DNA of 64,000 nt from Longimicrobiales bacterium. GTDB taxonomy: Bacteria > Gemmatimonadota > Gemmatimonadetes > Longimicrobiales > Gaopeijiaceae. The notes beneath the pieces were generated by a model, which had not been told where the DNA came from, did not search any database, and was given only the letters and a program-made list of their open reading frames with translations. The translations under genes and the position numbers were made by a program. Positions 21 to 20,955 of the stretch are shown here, piece by piece. Each line of letters opens with the position of its first letter. Within the stretch, counting starts at the first letter, position 1. The stretch is from NCBI GenBank assembly GCA_965249725.1, contig CBDFMQ010000002.1, positions 1,920,001 to 1,984,000 on the forward strand. The letters run 5' to 3'.

Positions 21-1670
21 TTGACGGCGTTCCAATGGCAGGCGGGAGGCGCACGTCTGGAGGGTATGCCGGACGGATCGGGCACTTACGATGACCTCGT
101 TGCACTGTTTCAAGAATTCCTCGAGTGGACGAATCCGGCCAGGGCGTCGGGCAACGTCCCGAACCGGGACATCGCCGGCAGCGCGACCGACGTTTATCCC
201 GACTACGGCGAGGCCGCCGTCGAGCGGCGTCTCGCAAAGATGCGGGACTTCCAGGCGCAGCTCGAAGACATGGCAGTCGTAGACTGGGAACTCGATCAAC
301 AGGTCGACTATCTGGCAGTTCGTTCCCGATTCGATCAGCACGATTTCCTCTTGAATGTGTCCCGCCCCTGGTCGAGAGACCCCGGCTTCTATGTGGATCA
401 GATGCTGCGCATCACGTTCGCGGATTTGCCATTGGACGACGATGAGACCACCGCACTCCGCACGCGCCTCGAGGCCATTTCCCTCTTGGTGGAGCAGGCA
501 AAGAACAACCTCACGGAAGTAGCCGCCGACTACGCGGACCTCGCGATCTTCAATCTGACCAATGCCGACGGCGTGGGGCACGGTTACCCGTATCGAGCAA
601 CGCCGCCGGCCGGCGTCATTGGCTGGTACGACGACTTCGGCGAGCGGGCGGACAGCCAGCAGCCCGATCTCCGCGCCGACATCGCCGCGGCCGGGGAATC
701 CGTCCGCGACTTCCACGACTGGCTCGTTGCGCATCGCGGCGACATGACCGGAAAAGGCGGCGTGGGTCGGGAGATGTTCGACTGGTATCTGAAGCACGTG
801 AAGCTCATGCCGTACGACGCGGATCAGATCGTCACGCTGGGCCTGGGGGAGCTGAATCGCCTCTGGAGCGTGTATGCGCTGGAGCAGCACCGAAACCGGC
901 ACCTGCCGCCGATCGAGCTGCCGGCGTCGGCGGAGGAGTATGCGGCGCGGATCGACAGCACCGACACGCGGATCCGCAAGTTCCTGGTGGAGGAGGACAT
1001 CATCACCATCCCGGACTACGTTAAAGAGTTCGACACGAACGTGCCGTGGATCGTCCGTCCCGCCGGCCCCAACTTTTGGGAGCAGGTGCAGTTCCGTGAC
1101 CCGACGCCCGATCACGTGCACGCCGTCATCCCCGGGCATCGTTTCGACGGCCTGGTCGCACGGCATAACACGCATCCCATCCGCGGCAAGATCGCCAGCG
1201 GGGCGCGCGTCGAAGGCTGGGGTACCTATCTGGAAGAAGCCACCATGAACGCCGGCTTGCTCGATGACATGCCACGGGTCCGCGAACTCATCTACGTCTT
1301 CGGTATCTTCCGGGCCGCCAGGGTGCCGGCGGACGTGTGGCTCCAGCTCAACGAGATGACGGTGAACGAAGTCGTAGCGTGGTGGATGGAGCGCACCCCG
1401 TGGCTGGACGAGAACGTTGCGCGCGTCGACGCCGAGATTTACTTGCGCCGGCCGCCCGGCTACGGGCTGGGGTACGCGATCGGCATGCTGCAGATGCAGC
1501 AGCTCCTTGCCGATCGCAAGCGCCAGCTGGGCGACGATTTCGACCTCGAGGAGTTCCACGACACGTTCATGGCAGCCGGGCGACTCCCAATCTCGCTGAT
1601 CCGCTGGGAGATGACGGGTCTGGACGACGGGGTGCGGGATCTCTGGAAGCGGGAGCGGCTCGACTACTAG
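21..1670 (+). CDS. DUF885 family protein (putative metallopeptidase-like), probably 5'-truncated by the window edge
   Basis: 549-aa ORF, frame open back to base 3; HAVIPGH, VEGWGTYLE and C-terminal 'LGDDFDLEEFHD..M..G.LP' motifs typical of DUF885. Confidence 0.75.
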   Translation: MTAFQWQAGGARLEGMPDGSGTYDDLVALFQEFLEWTNPARASGNVPNRDIAGSATDVYPDYGEAAVERRLAKMRDFQAQLEDMAVVDWELDQQVDYLAVRSRFDQHDFLLNVSRPWSRDPGFYVDQMLRITFADLPLDDDETTALRTRLEAISLLVEQAKNNLTEVAADYADLAIFNLTNADGVGHGYPYRATPPAGVIGWYDDFGERADSQQPDLRADIAAAGESVRDFHDWLVAHRGDMTGKGGVGREMFDWYLKHVKLMPYDADQIVTLGLGELNRLWSVYALEQHRNRHLPPIELPASAEEYAARIDSTDTRIRKFLVEEDIITIPDYVKEFDTNVPWIVRPAGPNFWEQVQFRDPTPDHVHAVIPGHRFDGLVARHNTHPIRGKIASGARVEGWGTYLEEATMNAGLLDDMPRVRELIYVFGIFRAARVPADVWLQLNEMTVNEVVAWWMERTPWLDENVARVDAEIYLRRPPGYGLGYAIGMLQMQQLLADRKRQLGDDFDLEEFHDTFMAAGRLPISLIRWEMTGLDDGVRDLWKRERLDY

Positions 1671-1805
1671 GCAGGGCGTGCAGGCCTGCGGCGGAGTATG
1701 GCTAGACGCTGGCTTGATCTCGAACGTCCCGAAAAGTGTGCCACTCCCCCCGACACCATCCTAGAACCCCAGAATGACGCCCGATTTAGTGTGCCGATTA
1801 GTTAC

Positions 1806-1844
1806 CGAATGGGGTGCATTTGTGGGGGCTTCAGTGGGTCGGGT
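1806..1844 (+). repeat. 39-bp repeat copy 1, containing a tRNA-Pro(GGG) anticodon-arm-like core
   Basis: CGAATGGGGTGCATTTGTGGGGGCTTCAGTGGGTCGGGT matches 5465-5503 at 34/39 positions. Confidence 0.7.
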
Positions 1845-1855
1845 CCCGGGTTAGT

Positions 1856-3043
1856 TCAACGGGCGGCGACCAGGCCTGGCCGGCCGGCCGGAAGACCCGA
1901 TAGCACCTTACCCGACAGCACCGCCCCCAGGAGCAGGATCGGGACCGTCCATCCCGCGGTCGCGTCATGGAGGTAACCGAATACGGCGGGGCCGATGGCG
2001 GCCACGAAGTAGCCCACCGACTGGGCCATGCCCGACAGCTCGCCCGCGGACTCGGCGTCGGGCGCGCGAAGCACCAGCAGCGTCAGTGCCAGCCCGAAGG
2101 TGCCGCCCAGGATGAAGCCGAGCAGCGAGACCCAGAGGGCTGCGAGCATACCACCCGGCAGGAGCAAGCCGCCCAGTCCCACGGCCTCGAGAACGGCGAG
2201 GGTCCAGATGATCCGGCGCTGGTCGGCCAACGTTCCGGCCCAGACCGGTATGAGGGCGGTTCCCAGAATCCCAGTGACTTGAGAGAGGGCGAGCATCCAA
2301 CCGGCGGCGGCCTCGCTGAGACCGCGACTCTGCAGAAGGTCGGGGAGCCAAGCGATGATGACGTAGAACGTGAGGGACTGGAGTCCCATGTAGAGAGCCA
2401 CCTGCCAGGCCAGCCTCGAGCGCCCCAGGACCCGGAGCGTGACCCCACCCGGCCGCCGGACCTGTAGCGCCGGCCGGGGCCCGGAGAGTTGGACGAGCCA
2501 CACGAGCAGCGCGAACACGGCCGGGAGCACCCCAATGCCCAGTGCTCCACGCCAGCCGAAGACCGCCGCGAGCGGTACGCTCAGCCCCGCCGCGGCGGTC
2601 GCGCCGAGCCCCATCATGCTCGAGTACAGGCTGGTGATCGGCCCGGGGTGGGCCGGGAAGTCACGCTTCGCTAGCACCGGCAGCAGGACGTTCCCAAGCG
2701 CGACCCCGACGCCCATGAGACTTGTCCCGAGATAGAGTGCCACGACCGACTCCGCGGCCCGGAGCCCGGTGCCGACGGCCAAGAGCACGAGCGCGAGAGC
2801 CACCGTCCGCTCGACCCCCACCCGGCGACTCACGACCGAGGTGAACGGGGACACGCACCCAAAGGCCAGGAGAGGCAGGGTCGTTAGCAGCCCGAGCGCA
2901 GTGTTGGAGAGCCCCGTGGCGGGTCGCATGACGGAGACCAAGGGCCCGACACTGGCGATCGCGGAACGGAGGTTCAGCGCGACGAGGACGATGCCGACGA
3001 TCAGAAGCAATCGGCGTGGGGAGGAGGAGGGAGACGGAGTCAT
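1856..3043 (-). CDS. CynX/NimT family MFS transporter
   Basis: 'ALNLRSAIASVGP', 'LGLLTTLPLLAF' and 'LSGMAQSVGY' motifs; about 12 hydrophobic segments. Confidence 0.9.
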   Translation of the reverse strand: MTPSPSSSPRRLLLIVGIVLVALNLRSAIASVGPLVSVMRPATGLSNTALGLLTTLPLLAFGCVSPFTSVVSRRVGVERTVALALVLLAVGTGLRAAESVVALYLGTSLMGVGVALGNVLLPVLAKRDFPAHPGPITSLYSSMMGLGATAAAGLSVPLAAVFGWRGALGIGVLPAVFALLVWLVQLSGPRPALQVRRPGGVTLRVLGRSRLAWQVALYMGLQSLTFYVIIAWLPDLLQSRGLSEAAAGWMLALSQVTGILGTALIPVWAGTLADQRRIIWTLAVLEAVGLGGLLLPGGMLAALWVSLLGFILGGTFGLALTLLVLRAPDAESAGELSGMAQSVGYFVAAIGPAVFGYLHDATAGWTVPILLLGAVLSGKVLSGLPAGRPGLVAAR

Positions 3044-3177
3044 GGAAGGAAGGGTCCGCCGGCCTCCGGGTGTCTATGCGGTTTCTTACCGCCATTCGTA
3101 AACATATGGAGTCGCATGGGGTCCAGCCGCAAACAGCGGCAGGAAACAGTCCCGGAAGTCAGATCGGACACGGCGCG

Positions 3178-5118
3178 CTACCCCCCCGCCCTCCCCGACT
3201 TCAAATGCTCGTCGAAGAACTCCAGCATGTCGAGGAGCATTTGTCGCACGTTGTCCCGGTTGGAGACGTAGTAGTCCTCGTCGTAGTAGACCTTCGCCCG
3301 GTGGGGCTTGTAGTGGCGCTCGAGCTCAGCGACGTAGCGGGCGGAGCTGTCCGACGCGGGCCAGCGGCCTTCTCCCCAGATCACGAACTGGGGTGTGTTG
3401 ACCTGCTCCACCCAGAACTGCGGTGAGACGTATCGGTAGGTCTCCTCGTTGCCCTCGAGTGGTCCGAACTCGTCTTCCGCCTGCTTGATGTGGCGGAGCT
3501 CTTGCGTATGGTAGTAGTGGATTCGATCAGCCGTCCCTCCGTGTGGGATGGACGCCCGGAATACATCAGGCGCGAACGTCGCACCCGCCATGCTGAGGAG
3601 CCCACCGTGGCTCGTCCCTGTGATTCCCATGTTGTCGGGGTCCACGTAGGGGAGCGTCTTGAGGTACTCCACACCCGCAACCAGGTCGTCGAGATCGCAG
3701 TGAGCCCAGCAGCCGTCGTTCAGGTCCGCGAACTCCCGCCCGTAGCCCGCTCCTCCGCGGAAGTTCGGTGCCAGGACAGCGTAGCCCTGCTCGGCGAAGA
3801 ACTGCATCTGAGTCTGGTACGTGTCGATGTATTGGCCGGTGGGTCCCCCGTGCGCGAACACGATTCCCGGCAGACGCTCCCCTTCGCGGATCGTCCTCGG
3901 GCGGAACAGGTAGGCGTTGATCCTCAGGCCGTCGCTCTGGTATGTGACCTTCTCGGGCACGATGAGCGCGTCGCCCGCGTTGCCCCCGGGAGAGGAGTCG
4001 GTCAAGCGCCGCGGTTCGCGGCTGTCCACGTCGATCACGAACAGGTCGGCGGCCTCGGTAGGCGTCTGGAGGGTGTAGCTGATCCGCCTGCCGTCCGGAG
4101 ACCACTCGGGCGCGCGCACGACGCCCATCCCCGGATCGACGAGAACGTCGGAGCGCCCCCCGGACGCCGCCGCGACGCGCAAATCGAACGTGCCATTACG
4201 GTTCGTCACGTAGGCGATCCGGCGGCCGTCCGGCGACCAGCGCGCGTCGCTCTGGTCCCAGGACTCCGGCGCGATCGGTCGAGGCTCCCCTCCCTGGATC
4301 GGCACCGTGTAGTAGTTGATCCAGCCACTCCGCCAGGATCGGAACAGAACCGTGCTCCCGTCCGGCGAAACCCGAGGCGGCGAGAAGTTCGGCGTCCCGG
4401 ACGACGTGCTGTAGTCGAAGAAGTCGGTGTCACGCACTACGAGCCGCATCCCCGAGCCGTCGGCGTTCATGATCATGACGTCGTGGTCCACCCAGTGGTC
4501 GTCGACGACCACGTAGACGATGCTCCGCGAATCCGGCGTCCACGTCGGTCCGATCTCGTAGCGCTCGTCGTTGGTGAGCCTCTCCACCCGTCCGTCGGGC
4601 ACCGAGACCCGCCAGATGTCGTAGTTCCCCGCGCCCCCGCCGGTGAACGTGATCCATCGACCATCGGGCGACCAGCTCGTCGTCGTCATGCGAGCGCCGA
4701 GGTGTGTGAGGCGCACGTCGCGGCCGTCCACGGCCGACCAGAGCCAGAGGTCCGGCGCGCCGTCCTCGGATCCACGGTCCGAGACGTAGGAGACCCACTC
4801 TCCGGTCGGTGACCATCGCGGGTGCCGGGCGAGCTGGAACGGGACCCCCCCGATGTCCTCCGCCATGCGACGCGGGAAGCCGCCCTCGGCCGGCACGCTC
4901 CAGAGCCCTCCCCCGAGAAGGCCCGAGGCGAACATGATCTCTGTCCCATCCGGGGACCATCGGGGTGGCTCGCCCGACAGCACGGAGCGTATGGACTGCA
5001 CCCGATCGACCCACTCTTCGGCGGGAAAGCGCGGATGCTGGGCTTTCGCAGTCGCGGGAATGTAGAGGGGGATGAGGCAGAGGGGTGCCCATCGTGCCAA
5101 CGCTTGCCGTGAGATCAT
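3178..5118 (-). CDS. S9 family (prolyl oligo/dipeptidyl) peptidase with PD40 beta-propeller
   Basis: Signal peptide from ATG 5118, repeated WSPDG motifs, HGGP, nucleophile GTSHGG. Confidence 0.9.
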   Translation of the reverse strand: MISRQALARWAPLCLIPLYIPATAKAQHPRFPAEEWVDRVQSIRSVLSGEPPRWSPDGTEIMFASGLLGGGLWSVPAEGGFPRRMAEDIGGVPFQLARHPRWSPTGEWVSYVSDRGSEDGAPDLWLWSAVDGRDVRLTHLGARMTTTSWSPDGRWITFTGGGAGNYDIWRVSVPDGRVERLTNDERYEIGPTWTPDSRSIVYVVVDDHWVDHDVMIMNADGSGMRLVVRDTDFFDYSTSSGTPNFSPPRVSPDGSTVLFRSWRSGWINYYTVPIQGGEPRPIAPESWDQSDARWSPDGRRIAYVTNRNGTFDLRVAAASGGRSDVLVDPGMGVVRAPEWSPDGRRISYTLQTPTEAADLFVIDVDSREPRRLTDSSPGGNAGDALIVPEKVTYQSDGLRINAYLFRPRTIREGERLPGIVFAHGGPTGQYIDTYQTQMQFFAEQGYAVLAPNFRGGAGYGREFADLNDGCWAHCDLDDLVAGVEYLKTLPYVDPDNMGITGTSHGGLLSMAGATFAPDVFRASIPHGGTADRIHYYHTQELRHIKQAEDEFGPLEGNEETYRYVSPQFWVEQVNTPQFVIWGEGRWPASDSSARYVAELERHYKPHRAKVYYDEDYYVSNRDNVRQMLLDMLEFFDEHLKSGRAGG

Positions 5119-5164
5119 GGTGTCGGCCTCCTTCGAGACGTGGCGTAGAGGTGTGCCGCTGCCG

Positions 5165-5262
5165 GTGGCAACGCTCCTCGAGCGCATTCGGGCAGTGCAT
5201 TGAGGCGGGATAAGGCGTCAGACATGGCCGCAAGATGCGCCTAGGTCGTGTTGGGCCACAAG
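5165..5262 (-). pseudogene. Degenerate 5' stub plus upstream region of a Ser/Thr kinase gene
   Basis: ATG 5225 reads MSDALSRLNA, with NALEER shortly after in another frame; upstream DNA aligns with 8161-8208, which precedes the intact kinase. Confidence 0.65.
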
Positions 5263-5464
5263 CGTTACAGGCCCCCGCCTCCGAGGACGACGCACCTGAC
5301 ACCCGACGGGGCGTCATCTGTGTCCGTTCGCGTGCCCATTGGGCCCGTTATTGTGCCTCCAAATGACGGCAGATTCCGGCATCCCTTCCGGCAAGAAACG
5401 GCAGATCGTGCGCCCTACCAGTGGTTTACACGGTTTCTTGCCGCCATTCGGCTAGTTGAAGGCT

Positions 5465-5503
5465 CGAATGGGGTTCACTTGTCCGTGCTTCAGTGGGTCG
5501 GGT
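5465..5503 (+). repeat. 39-bp repeat copy 2, containing tRNA-Pro(GGG) anticodon-arm core GAATGGGGTTCA
   Basis: 34/39 identical to 1806-1844; lies 1 bp from the kinase stop codon. Confidence 0.7.
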
Positions 5504-5504
5504 G

Positions 5505-8171
5505 CTACCGCCCTCCCGTCACTTCCTGCACCCAGTTGCGGACGAGGACTAGCTGGGCCTGCGCCGCCCCCCCGACTCGCGTGGAGAAGAGGAAGCGGCC
5601 GTCGGGCGCGACGTCGAAGAGTCGGCGTTGAACGTCGGTCCTCAGCGAGGGGTCCAACTCGAAGAGCCGCTCGCGTGACTCGACGACGAAGCTCGACGCG
5701 TCATGTGTCACCGTGGCGCTCCACATGCACCCGTCCAGGCCGATGAAGAAGACTTCCCCGCCGTCCCTCGACCACATGGCCTGAGAACCGCCCTCGATCG
5801 AGACCGACTCAACGCGGCCGCCCTCGGGATACGGTTGAGCGTAGACTTCGTCACGTCCCGACTGATTGGAGGTATAGACGAGCCAGTTCCCGTCGGGGGA
5901 GGGTTCCGGGCTTCGCTCGTTGAACGCCCGGTCGAGCCATGGCTCCGGCGCGTCATGCTCGCCCGGATCGAAGCGCCAGATGCTCCGAAGCGAGGCGCCG
6001 GGCATGCGCACCAAGAGCTCCCGGCCGTTTCGGGTCCACCACGCGTCAGCGGGCATGCCAGAGAGCTCGACGATGCTCTCGGCCACCCCCGACCCGCCCG
6101 TGGTGATGGACATGACCCAAGTGCGCGAGTCGCGTGAGCCGATGAACGAGATCCGTGGCTCCGTCGGATGCCACTGCGGACGTACACTCACCCCGTCCCG
6201 CGTGAGCGGAAGCCGTGAGCGTCCCACCAGGTCGAAGACCCAAATGTCCTGCTCGCCGAGGCTCTCCGATCCGCTTGCCCATGCGGCAACGACCGAATCT
6301 CCCGAGGCGGACAGGGCAACTCCCTCGAAGCCGCCCGGCTCGATCCAGTCGATGAGTTGGGCCTGACCAGCCCGATTCAGCCAGACGAGCTGTTCCGTGT
6401 CGCCGGCGGCGCCGCTCGCGTAAACGAGCGTCCCGTCGTCTGCAACCGCAAACTCCGCGCCCGTTGGCCCGCTCAAGCCAACCTGAGCGGAGGTCGATAC
6501 GGCCGGGCCGGTCGCGCTCAAGGTCTTGAGATCAAACGGTCGGACGAGGAGCGCGTTGTCCTCGAGCCGTCGGTAGACGATGTGTCCCGAACTCAAGTAT
6601 CGCGGCCGCCTTCCCTCTCCGAGGTCGTGCGCCTCGCCTGCCGCGATGTCGACGGCGAACATCGTCGTGTTCGACACGGTTCCCGACGTTAAGATCGCTC
6701 CGATGCCGGGAAGCACGTCCGACACGACACCCACGACGCCGATGTCGCCCAGCGACACCGATTCGGCCGAGCCGGGCATCCAGCGCCTCAACTCCGGCAG
6801 TTCCGGCACCGTGTAGTAGATCGCCCCGTCATCTCCCCAGGCGAAGCGTGCATTGGCCTCCAACCACACGGGAGTCCCGCCCTCGGCCGGCATCACGCCG
6901 ACGCCCCGCTCCTGCACCCGGAACGCTAGAAATTGGCCGTCTCGGGAGAACTGGGGGGCAACCGCTGATCCAGTGCCCGCGATCGGAGTCGCCTCCAGCT
7001 CGTTCAGGCGTCTCAGCCAGAGCTGGTGCGTCTGGCCCGCATCGCCCCGGCCCCGGTAGACGAGCTGGCTTCCGTCGGGACTCAGCGCCATGGCCGACTG
7101 ATCAAGGAACATGGCGGCTTTGGAGAACTCCTGACCTTGGGGCGTGGTAAGACCCACGCGCGTCACAGGTGCAGGCGCCGGTTCGTCTCCCAGGCTCCAA
7201 GCTGCCACGCCCGTTGCCACCGCCGCGACGACCCACGGGAGCGCGGTGGTCCAACGCCGTGCCGACGTGGCTGTTCTGGCGGTCGCAACCGCAACGGGCG
7301 CCGCCGTCGTCCGTGCCACGGTCTCATACCTGAACCCCACATCATCGAGGGCCGTCATGAACTCGGCCGCGCTTTCGAACCGGTCGGCGGGGAGCTTCTC
7401 CAACGCCCGGGCCAATACCCCCTCGACGTGTGGAGGCACCGTTCTCCGGACCGCGGTGATAGGGGGCGCATCCGTCGTGAGGATCTTGACCAAGACCGCT
7501 TGGGCGCTGGAGGCCGAAAACGGCGGATCACCGGAGAGCATCTCGTACAGAACACATCCGAGCGCATAGACGTCCGACCGGGGATCGACATCCCGGTCGC
7601 CCGTGGCCTGCTCGGGACTCATGTAGTGGGGAGTGCCCAGGCTGAGCCCAGTCTCGGTGATGCGACCGGAACCCGCCTGGGCAACGGCGAGCGCGATCCC
7701 GAAGTCGGCCACCAGCGGCTCTCCACGTTCACTGAGCAGAACGTTCGCGGGCTTGATGTCCCGGTGGACCACGCCGCGCTCGTGCGCGTAGTCCAGTGCG
7801 TCGGCGACCTTGGTGGTGATCGCGAGGGCGTCCTTTACACCGAGTTGCTTCTCGCGGTCGATCCTCTGCCTGAGCGTTTCCCCCTCGACGAACGGCATGA
7901 CGTAGTAGAGGAAGCCGTCGGCTTCACCGGAATCATGGAGTGGCAGGATATGCGGGTGTTGGAGGTTGGCGGTGGTCTTGATCTCGGCGAGGAACCGCTC
8001 GGCGCCGACCACGGCCGCCAGCTCGGGCTTGAGGACCTTGAGCGCTATCTTGCGCTCGTGCTTTAGATCGTCGGCCAGGTAGACCGTAGCCATCCCGCCT
8101 TCGCCGAGTTCACGCTCAATGGCGTAGCGGCCCTCGAGAGTCGCGTTCAGCCGGGTGACGGGGTCAGACAT
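5505..8171 (-). CDS. Hanks-type Ser/Thr protein kinase with TM segment and C-terminal PD40/TolB-like propeller
   Basis: GEGGMATVY, IALKVL, HRDIKPAN, DFG and GTPHYMSPEQ motifs; SPDG repeats. Confidence 0.95.
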   Translation of the reverse strand: MSDPVTRLNATLEGRYAIERELGEGGMATVYLADDLKHERKIALKVLKPELAAVVGAERFLAEIKTTANLQHPHILPLHDSGEADGFLYYVMPFVEGETLRQRIDREKQLGVKDALAITTKVADALDYAHERGVVHRDIKPANVLLSERGEPLVADFGIALAVAQAGSGRITETGLSLGTPHYMSPEQATGDRDVDPRSDVYALGCVLYEMLSGDPPFSASSAQAVLVKILTTDAPPITAVRRTVPPHVEGVLARALEKLPADRFESAAEFMTALDDVGFRYETVARTTAAPVAVATARTATSARRWTTALPWVVAAVATGVAAWSLGDEPAPAPVTRVGLTTPQGQEFSKAAMFLDQSAMALSPDGSQLVYRGRGDAGQTHQLWLRRLNELEATPIAGTGSAVAPQFSRDGQFLAFRVQERGVGVMPAEGGTPVWLEANARFAWGDDGAIYYTVPELPELRRWMPGSAESVSLGDIGVVGVVSDVLPGIGAILTSGTVSNTTMFAVDIAAGEAHDLGEGRRPRYLSSGHIVYRRLEDNALLVRPFDLKTLSATGPAVSTSAQVGLSGPTGAEFAVADDGTLVYASGAAGDTEQLVWLNRAGQAQLIDWIEPGGFEGVALSASGDSVVAAWASGSESLGEQDIWVFDLVGRSRLPLTRDGVSVRPQWHPTEPRISFIGSRDSRTWVMSITTGGSGVAESIVELSGMPADAWWTRNGRELLVRMPGASLRSIWRFDPGEHDAPEPWLDRAFNERSPEPSPDGNWLVYTSNQSGRDEVYAQPYPEGGRVESVSIEGGSQAMWSRDGGEVFFIGLDGCMWSATVTHDASSFVVESRERLFELDPSLRTDVQRRLFDVAPDGRFLFSTRVGGAAQAQLVLVRNWVQEVTGGR

Positions 8172-8262
8172 GCCCGCAAGATGAGCCTAAGTTGCGCCCT
8201 GCCACAAGGATCGCTCACTCACCGGCTACCTCGGCCGTCAAAGGACCTGTCGGACGGGTCCC

Positions 8263-8285
8263 CTCCAATACGTTCTCCAATAGTT
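8263..8285 (+). repeat. 12-bp-period direct repeat (integrase arm-site-like)
   Basis: CTCCAATACGTT-CTCCAATAGTT; near-identical pair at 13813-13835. Confidence 0.55.
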
Positions 8286-8390
8286 GACCCTCCTAGATGC
8301 CCGGAAACACCGATCCCGATCCCGGGCCATCCACTCCGAAACCGCACTGAAACCAGGCATTTCCCCGTGATTTGGCGTATAAGCTGTGGG

Positions 8391-8491
8391 GAATGGGTTT
8401 CAGGGGGTCGCCGGTTCGAGGCGAGGCGGCTGTGAGGTCTTCCGCGGTGTAGGTCAGATGCTCACCGCAGGTCAATCCGGCCGTCCCGACT
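8391..8491 (+). mobile_element. att-like tRNA-Pro(GGG) 3'-half remnant, interrupted in the T-loop by about 55 nt
   Basis: GAATGGGTTTCAGGGGGTCGCCGGTTCGA (8391-8419) and ATCCGGCCGTCCCGACT (8475-8491) join into a T-arm (GCCGG/CCGGC) and a Pro-type acceptor end. Confidence 0.75.
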
Positions 8492-8560
8492 GTGGTAAGA
8501 ATCTGCCACGCTTGATGCTACGACATCAGGCAGGGCTTTTCTTTCGTCCCACAAACGGAA

Positions 8561-8582
8561 TGTGTGTCCGTTTGTGTGTCCG
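8561..8582 (+). repeat. 12-bp-period direct repeat (arm-site-like)
   Basis: TGTGTGTCCGTT-TGTGTGTCCG about 70 bp beyond the tRNA fragment; related TGTGTCCGTT near 5319. Confidence 0.5.
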
Positions 8583-8825
8583 GTCGTGCGCCATTCTGGC
8601 ACCGATTTCGGCGTTCCAACGCCCCTCGGAGCTTGTGCCAGATTCGATCTTGCCCACGTGGCACCCCGGCTGGTTTGGTTCCTATCCATCGCTTGTCCTA
8701 AGCCGTCATGACAAGGGTACTCTCGAGCCTCGAGGCTTCCCGTCGTTTAGCTGGCCGCACAGAACCCGGCCTCGTACGTTGCAAACTGTAACGCTCGCCC
8801 GTCCCTCAATGTGGAGCGGAGCCCA

Positions 8826-10514
8826 ATGAGCGAGAAGCGCACGCGACGGACCTATCAGACCCGGTTCGCGAGAGTTGTCCGCCTGGTTCTCCTGTCACTC
8901 TTGACGGGCACCCTGTCTTGTGGCGGTGGCGGCGGAGATGATCCGGACGAGCCGACAGGCCCGAATGCCCCTCAGACCAATTTCACTGAGGACACGAGCG
9001 TCTCAGGCGTGGTCACCCTTACCGAGCTCACCGTTGCGGCTGGGGTCACCATCACCGCCACCGGCAATCTCGTCTGCGACATCGAGGGCGACATCGTGAT
9101 CGACGGGGACCTGGTGGGCGACTGCGTGGAGATCACAGTGTTCGGCCAGGGCAGTCTTACCATCAACGGAACGATCCGCAACCAGTGCAGTGTCCCTCCG
9201 GCAACTGGCGCGGCGCCGACCCTTCTCATCGCCAACCAGGGCGACATGAGCTTGACCGGGGCCACGATCCGGTCCTCTGGCAGGATCGACATCATGAATT
9301 CCAACCTGGGGGTGCCCCTATTCGACGGGAACCCGGCGGACGTGCCGTCCCCCTCGGGCGAGCCACCAGCGGTCCTCAGCATCGTCAATAGCACGATCGA
9401 GGTGGGGCCTGAACGGGCCCCCGACGGACAGGCCGGCACTGACGGCGAGACCGGCGACCTTGTTCTGATCATTGCGAATGGAGACATCGTGTTCGGCGGC
9501 ACCACGTTCATCAAGAGCCAGGACGGGGGGAACGGCGCCGACGCCGTGCATGAGGGAGCTCCGGCCGATGCGGTGGGCAGCCGTGGGGGCTTCGGTGGTC
9601 CGCTCGAGATCCTGGCCTCCGGGAAGATCGACTTTGGGGCCGGGAGTGTGACGATCCAGTCGGGGAGAGGCGGAGACGGGGGCGGCGCCACCGCCATCGG
9701 GACTCCAGGGAGCGGCGTGGCCGCCCCGGATGCTCGGGCTGAGGGTGGGGCCGGAGAGAGCGGGGGCGAGTTACGGATCTTCGGGGTCGCCGGCGTGCTG
9801 GGGGGTGTGAATTCCAATGTACGGATGGGTGGATCCGGTGCGGGCGGATGGGCCGAGGCGACCGGACCGGACGGCGATCCGGAGCAATGCACGAATGGGC
9901 AGGCTCAGTCGGGGGGAGGAGCGACGGCGGCGGGCGGAGAAGGATCTTCTTCTCCTGAGGGACCAGTGATCTTTGGTGCGTCCATCATCTTCGACAGGGA
10001 TCCCGTTGAAGGCGGAGACGGCGGAGACGGCGGAGACGCCCGCTCTGACGGCGGTCGGGGCGCCGACGGCTCCGGCGACTGTAGGCTTCGCGGTGGAGAC
10101 GGGGGCGGAAGCTCTGCCTGGGGAGGTGACGGAGCCGACTCCAGGACGTTCAATCTAGAGGGCAATCCAGCCGGTGAGGGTGGCCTTCCCGGCAACATCG
10201 TGCTTGAGGGTGGAACTGGCGGAAGTGGATTCAACGCTTGTTCGCCCCCGGACATAGGCGGGGAGGGTGGGACTGGGGGGACTGCCGGGGGCCGCGTGGC
10301 GCTCGGGGGGGCTGGGAGGAGTGGATCTGGAGGCCCCGGCCCATTCACGCTGAACGGGGTGGGCAACGGTGGAAACGGGGGAGATGGAGGAGGAGAGGCG
10401 GGCCCAGGGGCGGGCGGGCCTGCGGGCGAAGACATATTGGAGCGGCAGGGCGGTGTCGGCAGCGCGCCCACTCCCTCATTCCTGCCCGGCCAAGCAGGCG
10501 GGCAATGTAGCTAG
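8826..10514 (+). CDS. Glycine-rich putative lipoprotein (surface protein)
   Basis: Basic N-terminus, hydrophobic stretch, LTGTLSC lipobox-like motif, beta-rich region, then many GGxGGxGG repeats. Confidence 0.7.
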   Translation: MSEKRTRRTYQTRFARVVRLVLLSLLTGTLSCGGGGGDDPDEPTGPNAPQTNFTEDTSVSGVVTLTELTVAAGVTITATGNLVCDIEGDIVIDGDLVGDCVEITVFGQGSLTINGTIRNQCSVPPATGAAPTLLIANQGDMSLTGATIRSSGRIDIMNSNLGVPLFDGNPADVPSPSGEPPAVLSIVNSTIEVGPERAPDGQAGTDGETGDLVLIIANGDIVFGGTTFIKSQDGGNGADAVHEGAPADAVGSRGGFGGPLEILASGKIDFGAGSVTIQSGRGGDGGGATAIGTPGSGVAAPDARAEGGAGESGGELRIFGVAGVLGGVNSNVRMGGSGAGGWAEATGPDGDPEQCTNGQAQSGGGATAAGGEGSSSPEGPVIFGASIIFDRDPVEGGDGGDGGDARSDGGRGADGSGDCRLRGGDGGGSSAWGGDGADSRTFNLEGNPAGEGGLPGNIVLEGGTGGSGFNACSPPDIGGEGGTGGTAGGRVALGGAGRSGSGGPGPFTLNGVGNGGNGGDGGGEAGPGAGGPAGEDILERQGGVGSAPTPSFLPGQAGGQCS

Positions 10515-10699
10515 CGGTTCGGTTGGGTCGGACGTTATGTGGCCATTGCCCCCGATGGGTCGAGCATGATCCGGCGGAGAGACCCTGAATGTCCCTCGAC
10601 TGCTTCGAAGAAGGCACGTGTTACGTCCTTGTTCTTGCGATCCTCGAGCTGTTACCAGAGCGTGATCTGGGCTCCAGGTCCATCGGGATCGCCCACCCC

Positions 10700-12457
10700 T
10701 CAGTCTTGGACGCTGAACGCGACGTCGGATGCCAGAACGTCACCATCGTCCTTGAGCACGCCCTCGGCCTCGCCTCTGATAGCAAGACCGGCCTCAAGGG
10801 CCTCGGCCGCCGCACCCAAGCTCTCGAACTGCCCGTGGAAGACCGTGAGCTCGTTCACGGTAACCGTTACCTCGTCATCGCCCGTTACCAACGTGAAGGT
10901 GCCGGCGTCCGGGTTCACGGCCGTCACGGTGCCGCCGACATCCACCTCGTCGACGTCCTCTTGATCGTCCTCTTGATCGTCCTCTTGATCGTCTTCTTGG
11001 ACGCCGAACGCTACGTCGGATGCCAGAACGCTGCCGTCGTCCTGGAGCTGGCCCTCGGCCTCGCCTCTGACGGTGTGGCCGGCCTCGAGGGCCTCGGCCA
11101 CCCCAACCAGGCTCTCGATCTGTCCGTGGAAGTGGGTGTGCTCGTTCACGACGACCGTCACCTCGTGATCGCCCTTCGCCAACGTAAAGGTGCCTCCGTC
11201 CGGGTGGACCGCCGTGACGTGGCCCCAGACCTCGACCTGCTCGACCTCGTCTTTCCTGACTGAGAACTCGACCTCGGTCGCCAGCAGGGTGCCGTCGTCC
11301 TGGAGCAGGCCCTCGGCTTCGGCGTGGATTACGTGGTCGGAGAGGAGGGCCTCGGCAACCGCCACGAGGCTCTCAAAGTCACCCTCGAGCTCGGTGTAGT
11401 CGTCCACGGCGACCGTCACTTGGTGATCGCCCTTCACCAACGTGAAGGTGTCCTCGTCCGGGTGGACCGACGTGACATGGCCCTTTACCTCGACCTCGTC
11501 ATCGTCGTCCCCTTCCGGGTCCTCTCCGTCGGTCTCGAACTCGACCTTGACCGCGCGCATGGAACCGTCGTCCAGGAGCGTACCCTTGGCCTCGGCCCGC
11601 ACGGCCTCTTCCGCGGCCAGGGCTTCGGATACGGCCTCGAGAGTGAACAGATCACCGTCGATCTCCGTATGATCGTCCACCCGGACCACGGTCTCGTCCA
11701 GCAGCGTGAAGCTACCGTCGCCGACCGACATGACGAGACCTTCGACCTCGTCCAGCTCCTCGCCGTCTTCGTTCTCGTCCTCCGACTCGAGCTCACCGAT
11801 CTTCTTGCCGTCCTCGCCCCGCACCTGAAGCTCGGGAGAGATCTTGAGCACGCCGGACCCGGTGGCCGTCACCTTGCGGACTGTGGCTCCGCCATCGACG
11901 ACGATCGTTAGGATCTCGCCGCCCGCATCCACCGTGAACTCGGCATGGAGACGGAGCCCGTTCTGCTCGGCGCTCGGGATCGATAGGGGGTGCTCGCCTG
12001 CCTCGTAGGTGGTTCGCCCAACTCGGACATCGGTGTTCAGCGTGATCGTGGGATCCGCGGTCAGGAAGAGCCGAAGCATCTGGTACTCGCCTGTGGGCAG
12101 CGAGCTGTCCAGGAGCTCGAACCCCTCGTCCGGCAGGTTGAGCAGGTCCAAGCTAGCGTTCACCACTCCGGCGTCCACCCAGCCCCCGTCCGCTCGCTTC
12201 GCATCCACGCGGCCGATTTCCAGCGTGATGGAGACCACCTTGTCCAGCGAGACGCTGGCCAAGGCCGGGCCGCCCGCGGTCGGGACAGGGCTAGAGTCCG
12301 CGCTGGGGGCCGACTGTACGACGATGCCGAACATGCCAGCCGGGACGTCCGTCAGTTCGTCTGTGAGTCCGGTGAGGCTCTGCGCGTCCGTGCACGCGCC
12401 TCCAGAGAGCGCTATCACTGCAGCGATCTGCCAAAGTCGTCGGATAGTCCGTGTCAT
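10700..12457 (-). CDS. Lipoprotein with a DUF4382-like domain and four DUF5666-like repeats
   Basis: ALSGGAC lipobox; 'LDLLNL..LPTGEYQMLRL' DUF4382-like segment; four repeats 'EV.G.VT.V..D..TFTL..V.V...T....A.G.L.DDG..LA..V.F'. Confidence 0.8.
   Translation of the reverse strand: MTRTIRRLWQIAAVIALSGGACTDAQSLTGLTDELTDVPAGMFGIVVQSAPSADSSPVPTAGGPALASVSLDKVVSITLEIGRVDAKRADGGWVDAGVVNASLDLLNLPDEGFELLDSSLPTGEYQMLRLFLTADPTITLNTDVRVGRTTYEAGEHPLSIPSAEQNGLRLHAEFTVDAGGEILTIVVDGGATVRKVTATGSGVLKISPELQVRGEDGKKIGELESEDENEDGEELDEVEGLVMSVGDGSFTLLDETVVRVDDHTEIDGDLFTLEAVSEALAAEEAVRAEAKGTLLDDGSMRAVKVEFETDGEDPEGDDDDEVEVKGHVTSVHPDEDTFTLVKGDHQVTVAVDDYTELEGDFESLVAVAEALLSDHVIHAEAEGLLQDDGTLLATEVEFSVRKDEVEQVEVWGHVTAVHPDGGTFTLAKGDHEVTVVVNEHTHFHGQIESLVGVAEALEAGHTVRGEAEGQLQDDGSVLASDVAFGVQEDDQEDDQEDDQEDVDEVDVGGTVTAVNPDAGTFTLVTGDDEVTVTVNELTVFHGQFESLGAAAEALEAGLAIRGEAEGVLKDDGDVLASDVAFSVQD
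10955..11000. repeat. 12-bp coding tandem repeat (EDDQ linker)
   Basis: TCGTCCTCTTGA-type unit repeated about 3-4 times inside the CDS. Confidence 0.8.
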
Positions 12458-12521
12458 CGGTCTTCACCTGGTTCGAGTTCTCCCGTTCGAGTGCAGAAGC
12501 CCGGCGCGGCCACGATTCAGC

Positions 12522-12595
12522 AAAAAAAAACGAGGACCGTGCTCGGTGCCGGGGAGCCCCCTAAGGGTCTGCCCGGCAGCGTAACACGGTCCTCG
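12522..12595 (-). terminator. Long hairpin followed by U9 in the 5' leader of the DUF5666 gene
   Basis: Perfect 11-bp outer stem CGAGGACCGTG/CACGGTCCTCG, inner TGCCGGG/CCCGGCA stem, then 9 T on the minus strand. Confidence 0.7.
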
Positions 12596-12630
12596 CGGAC
12601 CCGGTCGCTACTCTGCCTGCCCCGCTTTCG

Positions 12631-12646
12631 TGCACCTTTTGTGCCA
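12631..12646 (-). promoter_or_regulatory. Candidate sigma54 -24/-12 promoter
   Basis: Minus strand TGGCACAAAAGGTGCA has exact GG-N10-GC spacing. Confidence 0.55.
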
Positions 12647-12932
12647 GCGGGTGGTTGCGGGGGCCGTAACTACTGGAGGTGTATGGACTTCCACACGGAG
12701 CAATCCGGGCGCTGCACCCTCATCGTGCGGCATCACCTCTCGCGAAAGGCGTCAAAAGGTATCCGACTTGCGACAATTCTGCCCATCGCGAAGCGACGTG
12801 CCGTCCGTCCAGTGGGGGGCCGGGTCAGTCGGGCACCCGCTCCTTCAGGCCGCCTTGAGGTGATTCAGGGTGTGTTCGGTATCTTAATCGGCCGCCGGGA
12901 GCACCGTTAGGTTTCAGTCACGGACCTGACGC

Positions 12933-13751
12933 ATGACCCGCGAGACCTCGGACGCGTGGAGACCTACCAACGTGAAACTCAGAGGCTATTTGGCCTTATC
13001 CCTCGCCGCCGTCTTTCTGCTGGCTGGCGACCCGATTCAGCGCCTTGTCATCTGCCCTGCGACGCGCATGTTTCCTTCGGCCGGGCCACATATACTGGGA
13101 GCATGGCAGCGCTTTCTCGCGCGCGTAGTGTTTTTCATCCTAGGCTGGATCGGCGGCGCGGCTCTGCCGGCGGCTCCCCGCATCCCGGGAGAGGCTGGGG
13201 TCCTTATTCTCATGAACCACCAGTCTTTCCTAGACATTCCCCTGATCATTGCGTCCCTTGACGGCTTCTATCCCAGGATCGTCACCCGCAGTAGGTATGC
13301 CAGGTGGATTCCCCTCATCTCCCACACTCTCAGGAAATTCGCGTACCCCTTGGTGGATCCCGGGGCGAAGGCAGGCACGGGGAGGCGAAACCTAGACGAC
13401 CTAGCTGAGGTGGCACGCACCAGTGCCGTCCCGCTGGCCCTGTTTCCCGAGGGCAGACGCACCAGGGACGGCAAGATCGGTCGCTTCAGGACCAGAGGCC
13501 TGGAGAGGATTCTGGGAGCAAGGGATTGGAGCGTATACGTTCTCGTCTGTGACGGCTACTGGAAGCACGCCACATTCGTACAATTCCTGGGGGAGATCAG
13601 TGGCATCGAAGGTCGTGTGAGTCTGCACGGGCCCTTCCCGTGGACGGACCCCGATTCCGACCCGGGCGCGTTCATCGCGGGCATCCGCGAGGTCATGGTG
13701 GAAGAGCTGGCGCGGGTGCGGACGGCGGCCCCCGCAATGGCGCTCCCCTAG
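12933..13751 (+). CDS. Lysophospholipid acyltransferase (PlsC-like)
   Basis: NHQSFLD and FPEGRRT motifs; true start may be slightly downstream. Confidence 0.9.
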   Translation: MTRETSDAWRPTNVKLRGYLALSLAAVFLLAGDPIQRLVICPATRMFPSAGPHILGAWQRFLARVVFFILGWIGGAALPAAPRIPGEAGVLILMNHQSFLDIPLIIASLDGFYPRIVTRSRYARWIPLISHTLRKFAYPLVDPGAKAGTGRRNLDDLAEVARTSAVPLALFPEGRRTRDGKIGRFRTRGLERILGARDWSVYVLVCDGYWKHATFVQFLGEISGIEGRVSLHGPFPWTDPDSDPGAFIAGIREVMVEELARVRTAAPAMALP

Positions 13752-13812
13752 CCCTCCAATACCTCAGTCCACAGAAGTGCAACACCGACTAGATCGAGTC
13801 TAAAGAGCCGCA

Positions 13813-13835
13813 CTCCAATACCTTCTCCAATACGT
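13813..13835 (+). repeat. 12-bp-period direct repeat (arm-site-like); extra copy at 13754
   Basis: CTCCAATACCTT-CTCCAATACGT. Confidence 0.55.
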
Positions 13836-13856
13836 ACCCCCCCAGGGTCTCTGGGA

Positions 13857-13960: not shown

Positions 13961-13989
13961 TGGACACGGTAGCACGTTAGTGCTATGTT
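13961..13989 (+). promoter_or_regulatory. sigma70-type promoter with overlapping operator palindrome for the AbrB-Doc operon
   Basis: TGGACA-N17-TATGTT; inverted repeat TAGCAC-GTTA-GTGCTA at 13970-13985. Confidence 0.6.
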
Positions 13990-14032
13990 GCCTTCGCGCT
14001 TCACCTTTGCACTTCAGCCTTTCGAGGTACCC

Positions 14033-14260
14033 ATGGTCCGCACTGTCACGCTACGCAAGATGGGTGGCTCCGTCGGTGCCACTCTCCCCAAGGATCTGGC
14101 TGACCGTCTGCATCTCGATGTGGGCGATCAGGTCTTCGTGGTCGCCACCGACAAGGGCCTACTCATTACCCCGTACGATCCGACCTTTGAGGAGGCGATG
14201 GCTGTTTACCGCCGCGGGGCAAAGAAGTATAAGAATGCCCTTCGTGAACTTGCAAAGTAG
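14033..14260 (+). CDS. AbrB/MazE family antitoxin
   Basis: 'LRKMGGSVGATLPKD..L.L.VGD', ends YKNALRELAK; directly upstream of doc. Confidence 0.9.
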   Translation: MVRTVTLRKMGGSVGATLPKDLADRLHLDVGDQVFVVATDKGLLITPYDPTFEEAMAVYRRGAKKYKNALRELAK

Positions 14261-14269
14261 ACTCATCCC

Positions 14270-14668
14270 TTGCCGACCGAGCCCACCTGGCTCAACCGCC
14301 CGATTGTCGAAGCACTTCATGCCGACCAGATCCTGGAGCATGGAGGTAGCCTCGGCATTCGCGACGTCGGGCTACTCGAGTCCGCCCTAACTCGGCCGCA
14401 GCAGAAGTGGCACTACACACCCGGCACGGACCTGGCGACTCATGCAGCCGCATACGCCTTCGGCATCGCCAAGAACCATCCCTTTATCGACGGGAACAAG
14501 CGGGCTGCGCTCGTTGCTGCCTATACTTTTCTCGCCATCAACGATTTTGAGCTCGCAGCGCCCGAGCCCGAAGCGGTTAACGCAATCGTCGGCCTCGCAG
14601 ATGGATCGCTTTCCGAGGAAGATCTCGCGTCGTGGATCCGATCCCATCTCACTCCCTGGATTGACTGA
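14270..14668 (+). CDS. doc: Death-on-curing (Doc/Fic) toxin
   Basis: HPFIDGNKR Fic motif; 'GIRDVGLLESALTRP'. Confidence 0.92.
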   Translation: MPTEPTWLNRPIVEALHADQILEHGGSLGIRDVGLLESALTRPQQKWHYTPGTDLATHAAAYAFGIAKNHPFIDGNKRAALVAAYTFLAINDFELAAPEPEAVNAIVGLADGSLSEEDLASWIRSHLTPWID

Positions 14669-14689
14669 ATCGCAACGCCCTTCAGTGGC

Positions 14690-14840
14690 GTCTAACGTTC
14701 CAGGGCCTCCGAACCGGCCCAATCACTTCTGTTCCGAACACCCTCGTTCTTCGTTCCAAGCACTTCTACTCACCAAGACCCGTCCGCTCATGGCCGGTTG
14801 GGTCGCAGCTCCCGAGCGCACAAGGGACCTCGGCTTAGGA
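14690..14840 (-). mobile_element. attC-like integron cassette recombination site
   Basis: Minus strand: R''-like TCCTAAG contains the stop codon of the preceding gene; internal AACCGGCC/GGCCGGTT stem; R' GTTAGAC fits GTTRRRY; shares about 27 nt with the 17865 site. Confidence 0.65.
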
Positions 14841-15477
14841 TGCTGACCCCCACCTTTCTGCCACGAGTCGATGCACGCCTCGCGAAGACCAATAGCCTGT
14901 GTGACTCTTCCGAAGATCCCAGGACGACCGCACGTGCCTGTCTTCAACTGCAACCGAGGGTTCCACCATCGGCCCCACCGGAAACGACACCGGATCGTTC
15001 TTATTCCACAAGTTCAGCCACCGAACAGCTGGCGAGGTGTCGTCGGAGGGCACCCCGTACCGGTGCGAGGGGGATTCTATCGCCATAACACAGCCCCCGG
15101 ACCGACGGGTCACTCCTCAGCGCGAGCATGCAGATCGGCGAACCCATGGTAACGAGCAGACGGAGGCGTACCCGACCCTCAACTACGTGCTCCTTGAAGC
15201 GCCTGAGCCGGTGCACCGCTCCAAACGTGTGCGAATCCCATTCGGTGTGGTCCCACCCCCACTCCACACCGCAAATCGCAGCCTGGTCCCATTCGGACCG
15301 AGACGTGGTCGAGAGGAAACGAAGTACCCCTTGATGGAATGAACCGTACTGGCGCGTGTGGGCGAATCCTGAATCCAATTCCACCTGACCAGGGTCGCGA
15401 GTGTCGCTCCGCGGACGCTCAAGTTCTGTTCCATGGGGCGACACACCGTGGATAAAGACGATCGCCTGCTTGTTCAT
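14835..15477 (-). pseudogene. Frameshifted and internally deleted alpha/beta-hydrolase-like cassette gene
   Basis: Two overlapping ORFs give VFIHGV..LLVTMGSPI and WLNLWNKNDPVSFP; GxSxG region missing. Confidence 0.55.
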
Positions 15478-15590
15478 CTCCTTCTCTCCCGGAGCCTTGG
15501 TCCATCGTCGCCGAACATCACCCTATCTCCCTTCCGTCCTTGGTCCCTCTCAGTCTACGCGGCCCGAATCGGCATTGCCTCGCTCAATAT

Positions 15591-15614
15591 TGGTCATTAT
15601 AGTCTATTTGACCA
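15591..15614 (+). promoter_or_regulatory. Operator palindrome upstream of the Phd-VapC operon
   Basis: TGGTCA-N12-TGACCA in an AT-rich stretch before RBS GGAGG. Confidence 0.55.
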
Positions 15615-15633
15615 TACTGACTGGAGGACTACC

Positions 15634-15912: not shown

Positions 15913-15917
15913 TCATT

Positions 15918-16343: not shown

Positions 16344-16377
16344 CCCCAACACCACACCCGTATCCGCCCTCAGTTGC

Positions 16378-16460: not shown

Positions 16461-16574
16461 GCGACCCGCACGATGGGCGCTACCTGGATAGGAAGGTGCA
16501 GGTCGTGTCGGGTTGAACGCTGGACCACTCTGACCCTCTGGGCGATCTGCTCTCCCGCCGCCGCCGTGGTGCGG

Positions 16575-17730: not shown

Positions 17731-17732
17731 GG

Positions 17733-20781: not shown

Positions 20782-20805
20782 GTTGTCCTGTCGGTTCTCC
20801 TGTCG
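20782..20805 (+). repeat. 12-bp direct repeat (arm-site-like)
   Basis: GTTGTCCTGTCG-GTTCTCCTGTCG about 105 bp before the tRNA-Ile fragment. Confidence 0.5.
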
Positions 20806-20909
20806 ATTGAACCCGGCAGATCACGGCATCGGGGAATCGCGAAGGCGGCAAATCGCGCGATCCATCTGAGTTTTCCGACATCTTGCCGTGATTCCGACCC
20901 CTACTCAGG

Positions 20910-20955
20910 CGCCTGATAAGCGTGAGGTCGGTAGTTCGAGTCTACCCAGGCCCAC
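20910..20955 (+). mobile_element. att-like 3' half of tRNA-Ile(GAT)
   Basis: CGCCTGATAAGCGTGAGGTCGGTAGTTCGAGTCTACCCAGGCCCAC is the anticodon arm, T-arm and acceptor end of tRNA-Ile; no 5' half. Confidence 0.85.

What the first reader, a model, noticed from the sequence alone, without database searches (positions are those of the whole stretch)
1680..13840. Stack of integrase-less cargo modules separated by tRNA-Pro(GGG)-derived att cores: a possible tRNA-anchored gene-accretion system
Seen: the core GAATGGG(G/T)T(T/G)CA, matching a tRNA-Pro(GGG) anticodon arm, recurs at 1807, 5466 and 8391, always intergenic and in the same orientation. 12-bp-period direct repeats occur at 8263, 8561 and 13813, with a related motif near 5319. 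The intervals hold unrelated genes (MFS + S9 peptidase; kinase; two lipoproteins + acyltransferase) and no integrase. Known: tyrosine integrases recombine in tRNA anticodon loops and bind tandem arm sites. Inference: small non-autonomous islets were inserted one after another by an integrase acting in trans, giving an integron-like array that uses tRNA-derived sites instead of attC.
Basis: partly seen in the sequence, partly recalled or inferred. Interest (0 to 1): 0.78.

Follow-up and report, generated by a model that had tools for sequence, protein, structure and literature searches.

The report
Stacked island remnants behind tRNA-Pro
The repeats are copies of the anticodon loop of a proline tRNA gene 9 kb upstream, and one still carries the cut-off tail of an integrase gene, so this stretch is most likely a pile of decayed gene-carrying mobile elements that inserted one behind the other, a known process seen here in a little-studied bacterial group.

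Summary
Observation confirmed and extended. The three cores copy the anticodon loop of tRNA-Pro(GGG), 9.3 kb upstream; 5 of 6 exact genome matches lie in this tract. Three further core junctions, a core-less half arm and a tRNA-Ile junction extend the array to about 30 kb. The 12-bp repeats lie in arms that precede displaced tRNA halves across the family (44 of 301 genomes). Decisive: 8524-8634 encodes the last 37 residues of an integrase, 62% identical to an intact one beside tRNA-Pro(GGG) in G266. Other arms are truncated, and one overlap is mutated. The array is therefore most likely tandem accretion of integrative elements that later decayed (CIMEs), not an integron-like cassette system. 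This genome's two intact family integrases fall outside the Pro(GGG) clade. No excision joints were seen in public contigs. Unexplained: two of the three cores lack the tRNA-restoring half and share an arm found in 4 of 251 genomes. The scan noted such arrays before on other DNA (e1-8367928, e1-8729279). New member of a known kind.

The parts
21..1670 (+). DUF885 gene, last cargo gene of the module that ends at the 1807 junction
   Evidence: PF05960; 90-94% nucleotide identity to copies in other genera
1717..1806 (+). Outer part of a third arm type ('Lb', GTGTGCC repeats); the inner ~130 bp is missing
   Evidence: HMM from four G334 arms: only hit in the genome, model positions 24-124 of ~250, E 0.019; weak
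1807..1818 (+). att core, overlap ATGGGGT at 1809-1815
1819..1844 (+). Non-tRNA right arm ('N-type', ...TTCAGTGGGTCG)
   Evidence: 87% to 5465-5503; pattern in 4 of 251 genomes
1856..3043 (-). CynX/NimT-like MFS transporter (cargo)
   Evidence: PF07690; TIGR00896 below cut-off
3079..3125 (+).
   Evidence: 34 of 35 bases identical to the G001 arm
3178..5118 (-). S9 peptidase with PD40 repeats (cargo)
   Evidence: PF00326, PF07676
5196..5269 (-). Stub of a kinase gene: upstream region and first ~10 codons (MSDALSRLNA), rest lost
   Evidence: 92% to C3:959953-960025; 76% to the start of the 8171 kinase; codons read
5319..5465 (+). Complete Pa arm: TGTGTCC-type repeats (5319/5331, 5340/5352) and conserved GCAGATCGTGC...TTCTTGCC segment
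   Evidence: HMM trained on relatives only, E 1e-25; 95% over 111 bp to C3:1912204-1912314
5466..5503 (+). att core (5466-5477) and N-type right arm
5505..8171 (-). Ser/Thr kinase with TolB-like propeller (cargo); stop codon 2 bp from the N arm
   Evidence: PF00069, PF07676
8256..8390 (+). La arm with CTCCAATA repeats (8263/8275)
   Evidence: HMM trained on relatives only, E 4e-31
8391..8490 (+). Displaced 3' half of tRNA-Pro(GGG); one mismatch in the overlap; 55-bp insert in the T loop (8420-8474)
   Evidence: 28 of 29 bases identical to the tRNA, then resumes after the insert
8491..8584 (+). Integrase-side arm: hairpin and TGTGTGTCCG repeats (8561/8573)
   Evidence: 8474-8636 is 79% identical over 163 bp to the arm and integrase end behind intact tRNA-Pro(GGG) in G266
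8518..8634 (-). C-terminal stub (37 aligned residues, then stop) of a tRNA-Pro(GGG) tyrosine integrase
   Evidence: tblastn 62% identity, E 7.8e-6 against the whole genome; translation
8811..10514 (+). Gly-rich lipoprotein-like ORF (cargo)
   Evidence: ORF; no Pfam or NCBIfam match
10700..12457 (-). DUF4382/DUF5666 protein (cargo)
12933..13751 (+). Acyltransferase (cargo)
   Evidence: PF01553
13772..13856 (+). Outer half of a second La arm (repeats 13813/13825); inner arm and core absent
   Evidence: La HMM positions 37-127, E 3e-10
20790..20955 (+). Pa-family arm followed by a displaced 3' half of tRNA-Ile(GAT); far end of the array
   Evidence: Pa HMM E 1.5e-11; sequence

Best explanation
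The tract is most likely a tandem pile of tRNA-Pro(GGG)-targeting integrative elements that inserted one behind another and then lost their integrase and replication genes by deletion, leaving att junctions around one to four cargo genes. Shown: the junctions share the 7-nt anticodon loop; their arms belong to three families found in relatives; one junction keeps the tail of its integrase gene; relatives hold intact elements built as tRNA, repeat arm, convergent integrase, then an HTH or primase gene, and in one case cargo and the far arm. Inferred: a tyrosine integrase exchanges strands across the anticodon loop and binds the 12-13-bp repeats as arm sites; each arrival pushes older units away from the tRNA; deletions then trim them. 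In this genome the array is probably stranded, because no integrase of the Pro(GGG) clade was found; an incoming element could still move parts of it in cis or in trans.
For: Integrase stub at 8524-8634, starting with the family's conserved last helix KLRGALERR, inside 163 bp of 79% identity to the intact attL and integrase end of G266. Intact parents: G266 (PF00589 integrase plus PriCT-2/AAA_25 primase gene) and L157 (6.2 kb, integrase, HTH_17-like ORF, cargo, TGTGTCG repeats at both ends). Decay in the tract: arms cut at 3079 and C3:1915484, Lb arm internally deleted, La arm at 13772 without core, kinase stub at 5196, overlap mismatch at 8391, premature stop in the gene at C3:1914136 and split ltrA. 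Graded series in relatives: of 9 fully spanned modules, 1 has an intact integrase, 2 have remnants, 6 have none; G001 has a 407-bp unit whose two arms are fused at the repeats. Four integrases next to Pro(GGG) group with support 100/98, apart from this genome's two. The same three-step route is described for CIMEs (PMC5704250, passage).
Against: Only one of the modules shows an integrase remnant; for the others descent from an autonomous parent is inferred. Arms are well kept while cargo differs (95% between two Pa arms with unrelated genes), which suggests use after integrase loss. The N-type arm lacks the tRNA half yet recurs in 4 genomes of 3 genera, 7 times in G334, and the layout core, N arm, inverted kinase, arm is repeated there. 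No integrase was found for the La or Lb arms. Arm-repeat type did not cluster significantly on the integrase tree (55 of 500 shuffles as low). The assembly is 95.8% complete, so a helper could be missing.
Confidence: 0.72

Rival explanations
1. Non-autonomous single-gene islets with their own arms circulate in the community and are excised and inserted in trans by a visiting Pro(GGG) integrase; N-type units, which cannot restore the tRNA, stack only into displaced att sites.
For: N-type junctions in 4 of 251 genomes, control 0; repeated kinase units in G334 and integrase-less kinase units between tRNA-Ala fragments in G136 and G267; the same Pa arm and upstream gene in front of different right flanks in metagenome loci L145, L151, L162; one contig in run X2 joins a different Pa spacer to the N arm of C3:1915493 (table 5c; single contig, 90% likeness, weak); the integrase family is common, 64 of 201 genomes.
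Against: Integrase stub at 8524; damaged arms at most junctions; array kinases do not form a clade and the 5505 kinase is no closer to G334 array kinases (about 42% identity) than to other paralogues; no joint between cores among those listed; this genome's intact family integrases carry TTCCCGC repeats, not the repeats of these arms.
Confidence: 0.2
2. Some junctions are small att-only insertions that landed between genes already adjacent, so the 'modules' are not units of transfer.
For: In L151 the DUF4440, DUF885 and MFS genes (88-95% identical to this genome) are neighbours with about 30 bp where this genome has the 165-bp junction; G001 has a cargo-free 407-bp arm-core-arm unit.
Against: N-type junctions occur only in this tract of the genome; the L151 state is equally explained by deletion of the junction; the MFS gene has different 3' neighbours in G001, G056 and G300.
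Confidence: 0.07
3. Chance matches or an assembly artefact.
For: One isolated chance match of the core exists in the genome.
Against: Expected 0.003 per 12 kb; homologous arms in many genomes; contigs of run X3 bridge 1807, 3115, 5466, 8391 and 13813.
Confidence: 0.01

Closest known systems
CIMEs and tandem accretion (ICESt1/ICESt3 family; review PMC5704250, passages read)
   Same: Elements that lost integration and transfer genes but keep att sites, stacked by later integration into the resident att site; chimeric internal junctions.
   Different: Parents here look like small satellite-type elements (integrase, HTH, primase), not ICEs or IMEs; target is the tRNA-Pro anticodon loop; several junctions lack the tRNA-restoring half.
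Dehalococcoides ssrA genomic islands (PMC3146451, passages read)
   Same: Many direct repeats downstream of one tDNA; 15 islands without integration module carrying members of one expanded gene family (rdhA there; kinases are frequent cargo here).
   Different: Serine recombinase and T-loop crossover there; tyrosine integrase and anticodon-loop crossover here.
Tycheposons and Prochlorococcus tRNA islands (bioRxiv 10.1101/2020.12.28.424599, passages read)
   Same: Islands grow behind tRNAs; partial tRNAs and fragmented integrases mark older insertions; parents carry integrase, excisionase and replication genes.
   Different: Other phylum; homology of the integrases was not tested.
Islander-type tDNA islands with anticodon-centred att site A (PMC4383910, passages read)
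   Same: Intact tDNA plus displaced 3' fragment in the same orientation; crossover at the anticodon loop.
   Different: Islander requires an integrase in each island, so this array would be rejected; N-type junctions carry only the loop.
Integrons (recalled from general knowledge)
   Same: Row of one- to few-gene units separated by recombination sites.
   Different: No intI beside the array, junctions are arm-core-arm att sites and not attC hairpins, gene orientation is mixed.

Membership tests
CIME array (tandem accretion) | Units bounded by att junctions of one target site | tested here: met
   Six core-bearing junctions behind the tRNA, same strand, shared 7-nt overlap; several arms are damaged
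CIME array (tandem accretion) | No intact integrase or transfer genes inside the units | tested here: met
   No PF00589, PF00239 or PF07508 match in the tract; none of the 27 ORFs from the tract scanned matched a transfer family
CIME array (tandem accretion) | Derived by deletion from an autonomous element | tested here: met
   Shown for the unit right of 8391; inferred for the others
CIME array (tandem accretion) | Mobilised in cis with an adjacent functional element | not testable with these tools
   Needs excision or transfer assays; contigs cannot show rare forms
Integron | intI gene next to attI at the head of the array | tested here: not met
   No tyrosine recombinase at the array; the IntI-like gene is at C3:1028959, beside tRNA-Pro(TGG)
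Integron | Cassettes bounded by attC hairpins | tested here: not met
   Junctions are tRNA-loop cores with long arms; attC-like motifs occur separately at 14693-18020
Islander-type autonomous tDNA island | tDNA and its displaced fragment in direct orientation | tested here: met
   C3:1912303 and window 8391
Islander-type autonomous tDNA island | Integrase ORF inside each island | tested here: not met
   Only a 37-codon stub
Tycheposon or PICI-like satellite (parent elements) | Integrase, excisionase and primase/helicase module at a tRNA | tested here: inconclusive
   Integrase plus primase gene in G266; integrase plus weak HTH_17 match in L157; absent from the window; family membership of the parents not tested

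The most novel reading that the evidence does not exclude
Longimicrobiales carry a class of integrase-less, one-gene islets whose right arm (N-type) has dropped the tRNA-restoring half. They can only dock into the displaced att sites behind tRNA-Pro(GGG), are moved in trans by visiting Pro(GGG) integrases, and act as a cassette system that feeds the large Ser/Thr kinase repertoire of this group.
Probability: 0.18. Interest if true: 0.72.

Novelty: new member of a known kind. Interest (0 to 1): 0.36.

Why it matters
It gives a well-documented case of island accretion and decay in Gemmatimonadota, with the intact parent, the integrase clade, the arm repeats and the remnants all in hand. That also names a candidate integrase-att pair (G266, tRNA-Pro GGG) for a phylum with few genetic tools. 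The process itself is known. It would matter more if the N-type units proved mobile, since att sites that do not restore the tRNA and dock only in old junctions would be an unusual route to cassette-like gene capture, and kinase paralogues here lie more often behind tRNAs than expected (11 of 29 within 20 kb against 16% background; clustered, so weak).

Tried and rejected
Rfam scan of window 1-30000 at E up to 1: nothing. Viral contigs with a Pa pattern and an La pattern: 0 hits each. N-type pattern in genome contigs: 1 hit, the G001 locus. Public runs: no RNA holder listed. Contigs laid (4 runs, 90% likeness; 15 of 97 joints and 12 of 28 inserts shown; 4 runs, 98%; all joints shown), 7 different runs in all: no joint from one core to another among those listed; contigs drop rare forms, so this does not show absence. 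Window 18100-20900 had almost no cover in the 4 runs, and contigs of three runs leave the reference at C3:1910895; neither was followed up. XerD-like integrase next to a Pa arm in G267: set aside as the cognate enzyme, because it was the only such case and sits beside an Rhs-like fragment (label recalled). Idea that the N arm is an inverted tRNA end: 16 local alignments, best 10 of 300 shuffles as high, inconclusive. Idea that array kinases are one mobile lineage: not supported (FastTree, 40 rows, long branches). Search for an integrase behind CTCCAATA-type arms: pattern in 4 of 201 genomes; no integrase followed it in the loci inspected from G011, G317, G380 and G389. G334's intact Pro(GGG) integrase has other arm repeats than Lb. 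The module census missed tRNA-Ala modules seen by eye, so its counts are a subset. Literature searches listed no paper on tRNA islands of Longimicrobiales or Gemmatimonadota; the library lacks most subscription journals and no supplements were read.

Full report
Setting. The window is G000:C3:1920001-1984000. A same-genus genome's record is titled Longimicrobiales, so the organism is taken to be Gemmatimonadota.

The 12-mer occurs at 1807, 5466 and 8391. Genome-wide there are 6 exact matches, 5 of them in or within 18 kb behind tRNA-Pro(GGG) at C3:1910628-1910701; 0.87 are expected per genome and 0.003 per 12 kb. The tandem repeats are at the stated places. Contigs of run X3 bridge every junction from 1807 to 13813, so the array is not an assembly artefact.

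Anatomy. Counting from the tRNA, junctions lie at C3:1912303, C3:1915493, window 1807, 3115, 5466 and 8391; a core-less half arm follows at 13772-13856 and a tRNA-Ile junction at 20790-20955. All Pro junctions share ATGGGGT, the anticodon loop; 8391 has one mismatch in it. Anticodon-centred crossover is one of the standard tDNA sublocations (PMC4383910, table note). Right sides are of two kinds: the displaced tRNA 3' half with a T-loop insert (1912303, 8391), or a short non-tRNA arm ending TTCAGTGGGTCG (1915493, 1807, 5466), found nowhere else in the genome; the right side of 3115 matches neither. Left sides are of three kinds. Pa (5319-5465, also at 1912204, stubs at 3079 and 1915484) matched 44 of 301 genomes of the order, 42 of 156 in the family, and is followed there by 3' halves of Pro, Ile, Ala and Arg tRNAs. 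La (CTCCAATA repeats) precedes Pro(GGG) halves in several genera. Lb comes from a kinase array in G334 and weakly matches 1717-1816. Of 90 distinct arm hits in relatives' loci, 47 were followed by a tRNA 3' half, 3 by an N-type junction, 2 by a reversed 5' half and 38 by nothing recognised.

The parent elements. A tyrosine integrase family (PF00589) sits convergently behind tRNA 3' ends in relatives and was found in 64 of 201 family genomes. L157 is a complete 6.2-kb element at tRNA-Ile with TGTGTCG repeats at both ends, integrase, an HTH-like ORF and cargo. In G266 the intact tRNA-Pro(GGG) is followed by an arm, the integrase and a primase-type gene. Window 8474-8636 is 79% identical to that arm and integrase end, and 8524-8634 translates to the last 37 residues of the enzyme (62%, E 7.8e-6). 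Part of that identity lies in the arm itself, but the first nine residues are the family's last conserved helix. So the repeat at 8561 is the integrase-side arm of an element whose integrase was deleted. In a tree of 36 family members, four Pro(GGG)-adjacent integrases group with support 100/98, while this genome's two intact members (C3:1704169, C3:2736523; 53-55% to G266's) lie elsewhere and carry TTCCCGC repeats. Arm type itself was not significantly clustered on that tree, and one label (L216) is probably a pattern error.

Cargo. It is mobile but not tied to these junctions. DUF885 is 90-94% identical in other genera, and in G056 it lies with a fragment of the MFS gene in a tRNA-Ile island bounded by a Pa arm and a broken family integrase. 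In L151 DUF4440, DUF885 and the MFS gene are neighbours behind a Pro junction with no 1807 site between them; this can be read as later loss of the junction or as its insertion.

Mechanism. Shown: junction anatomy, integrase stub, intact parents, damaged arms. Inferred: strand exchange across the loop, arm binding, order of events. The simplest account is the three-step route described for CIMEs: integration, decay, then integration of the next element into the resident att site (PMC5704250, passage). Similar arrays are described at Dehalococcoides ssrA (PMC3146451, passages) and at Prochlorococcus tRNAs (bioRxiv 2020.12.28.424599, passages). Pavlovic 2004, Bellanger 2011 and Williams 2002 were seen only as reference entries; one passage of PMC11389934 was read and added nothing.

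Against this reading, or left open. Only one unit shows an integrase remnant. N-type junctions cannot restore the tRNA, yet occur in G000, G001, G404 and seven times in G334 (4 of 251 genomes), where they repeatedly face the 3' end of a kinase gene. Of 9 spanned modules in relatives, 6 have no integrase trace. This suggests that some integrase-less units kept moving. However, the array kinases are not one lineage, and no excision joint was listed in the contigs. No integrase was found for the La and Lb arms.

Verdict. Real feature, largely explained. It works like, and by three of four tested or testable features is, a CIME accretion array; it is not an integron. Earlier notes of this scan describe like arrays on other DNA, including a Gemmatimonadota kinase array at tRNA-Pro; these are unchecked notes and were not used as support. 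Interest 0.36; the N-type junction is the one part worth an experiment.

Noticed in passing
window 8420-8474; C3:1912332-1912418 and 11 or more other tRNA-fragment sites: Structured insert in the T loop of displaced tRNA fragments (starts GCCGAGGCG), behind Pro, Ser, Cys and Arg tRNAs; already noted by the scan (e1-9993800, e1-8278363).
   Followed up: partly
window 14693-14805, 16376-16460, 17862-18020; C3:2827911-2834059; G001 L199: attC-like repeats between toxin-antitoxin and HTH genes inside the last module, with more copies elsewhere and in G001; an IntI-like gene lies at C3:1028959 beside tRNA-Pro(TGG). The attC and IntI labels are from recalled consensus, not tested.
   Followed up: no
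window 13985-17205: Three toxin-antitoxin pairs in a row: MazE-like/Doc, Phd/PIN, HigB/HigA, plus a short toxin-like gene tail after the half arm at 13856.
   Followed up: no
window 37476-38668: tRNA-Thr(TGT) has integrase remnants on both sides and a TGTGTCC repeat arm behind it; a 13-bp unit is repeated four times upstream.
   Followed up: partly
L014:9583-10230 (G001): Cargo-free 407-bp unit: La arm, Pro half with two T-loop inserts, integrase-side arm fused at the repeats to a Pa arm, N junction.
   Followed up: partly
L254, L255, L133 (G334): Large kinase array with at least 7 Lb arm matches in 40 kb of contig C42 and 4 cores on contig C151.
   Followed up: partly
L016:9913-9960 (G002): tRNA-Pro(GGG) 5' half broken at the anticodon loop next to an insertion sequence; the 3' half is on another contig.
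   Followed up: no
C3:1704133, C3:2736483: The 16-mer GCAGATCGTGCAGTCC of the Pa arm recurs in the last codons of the small ORF just upstream of both intact family integrases.
   Followed up: no
L052, L055, L056, L057, L192: Some Pa arms are followed by a reversed tRNA 5' half (Ile, Val), i.e. the opposite insertion geometry.
   Followed up: no
whole genome: 29 close Ser/Thr kinase paralogues; 11 lie within 20 kb downstream of a tRNA or tmRNA call against 4 upstream, two within 500 bp.
   Followed up: partly
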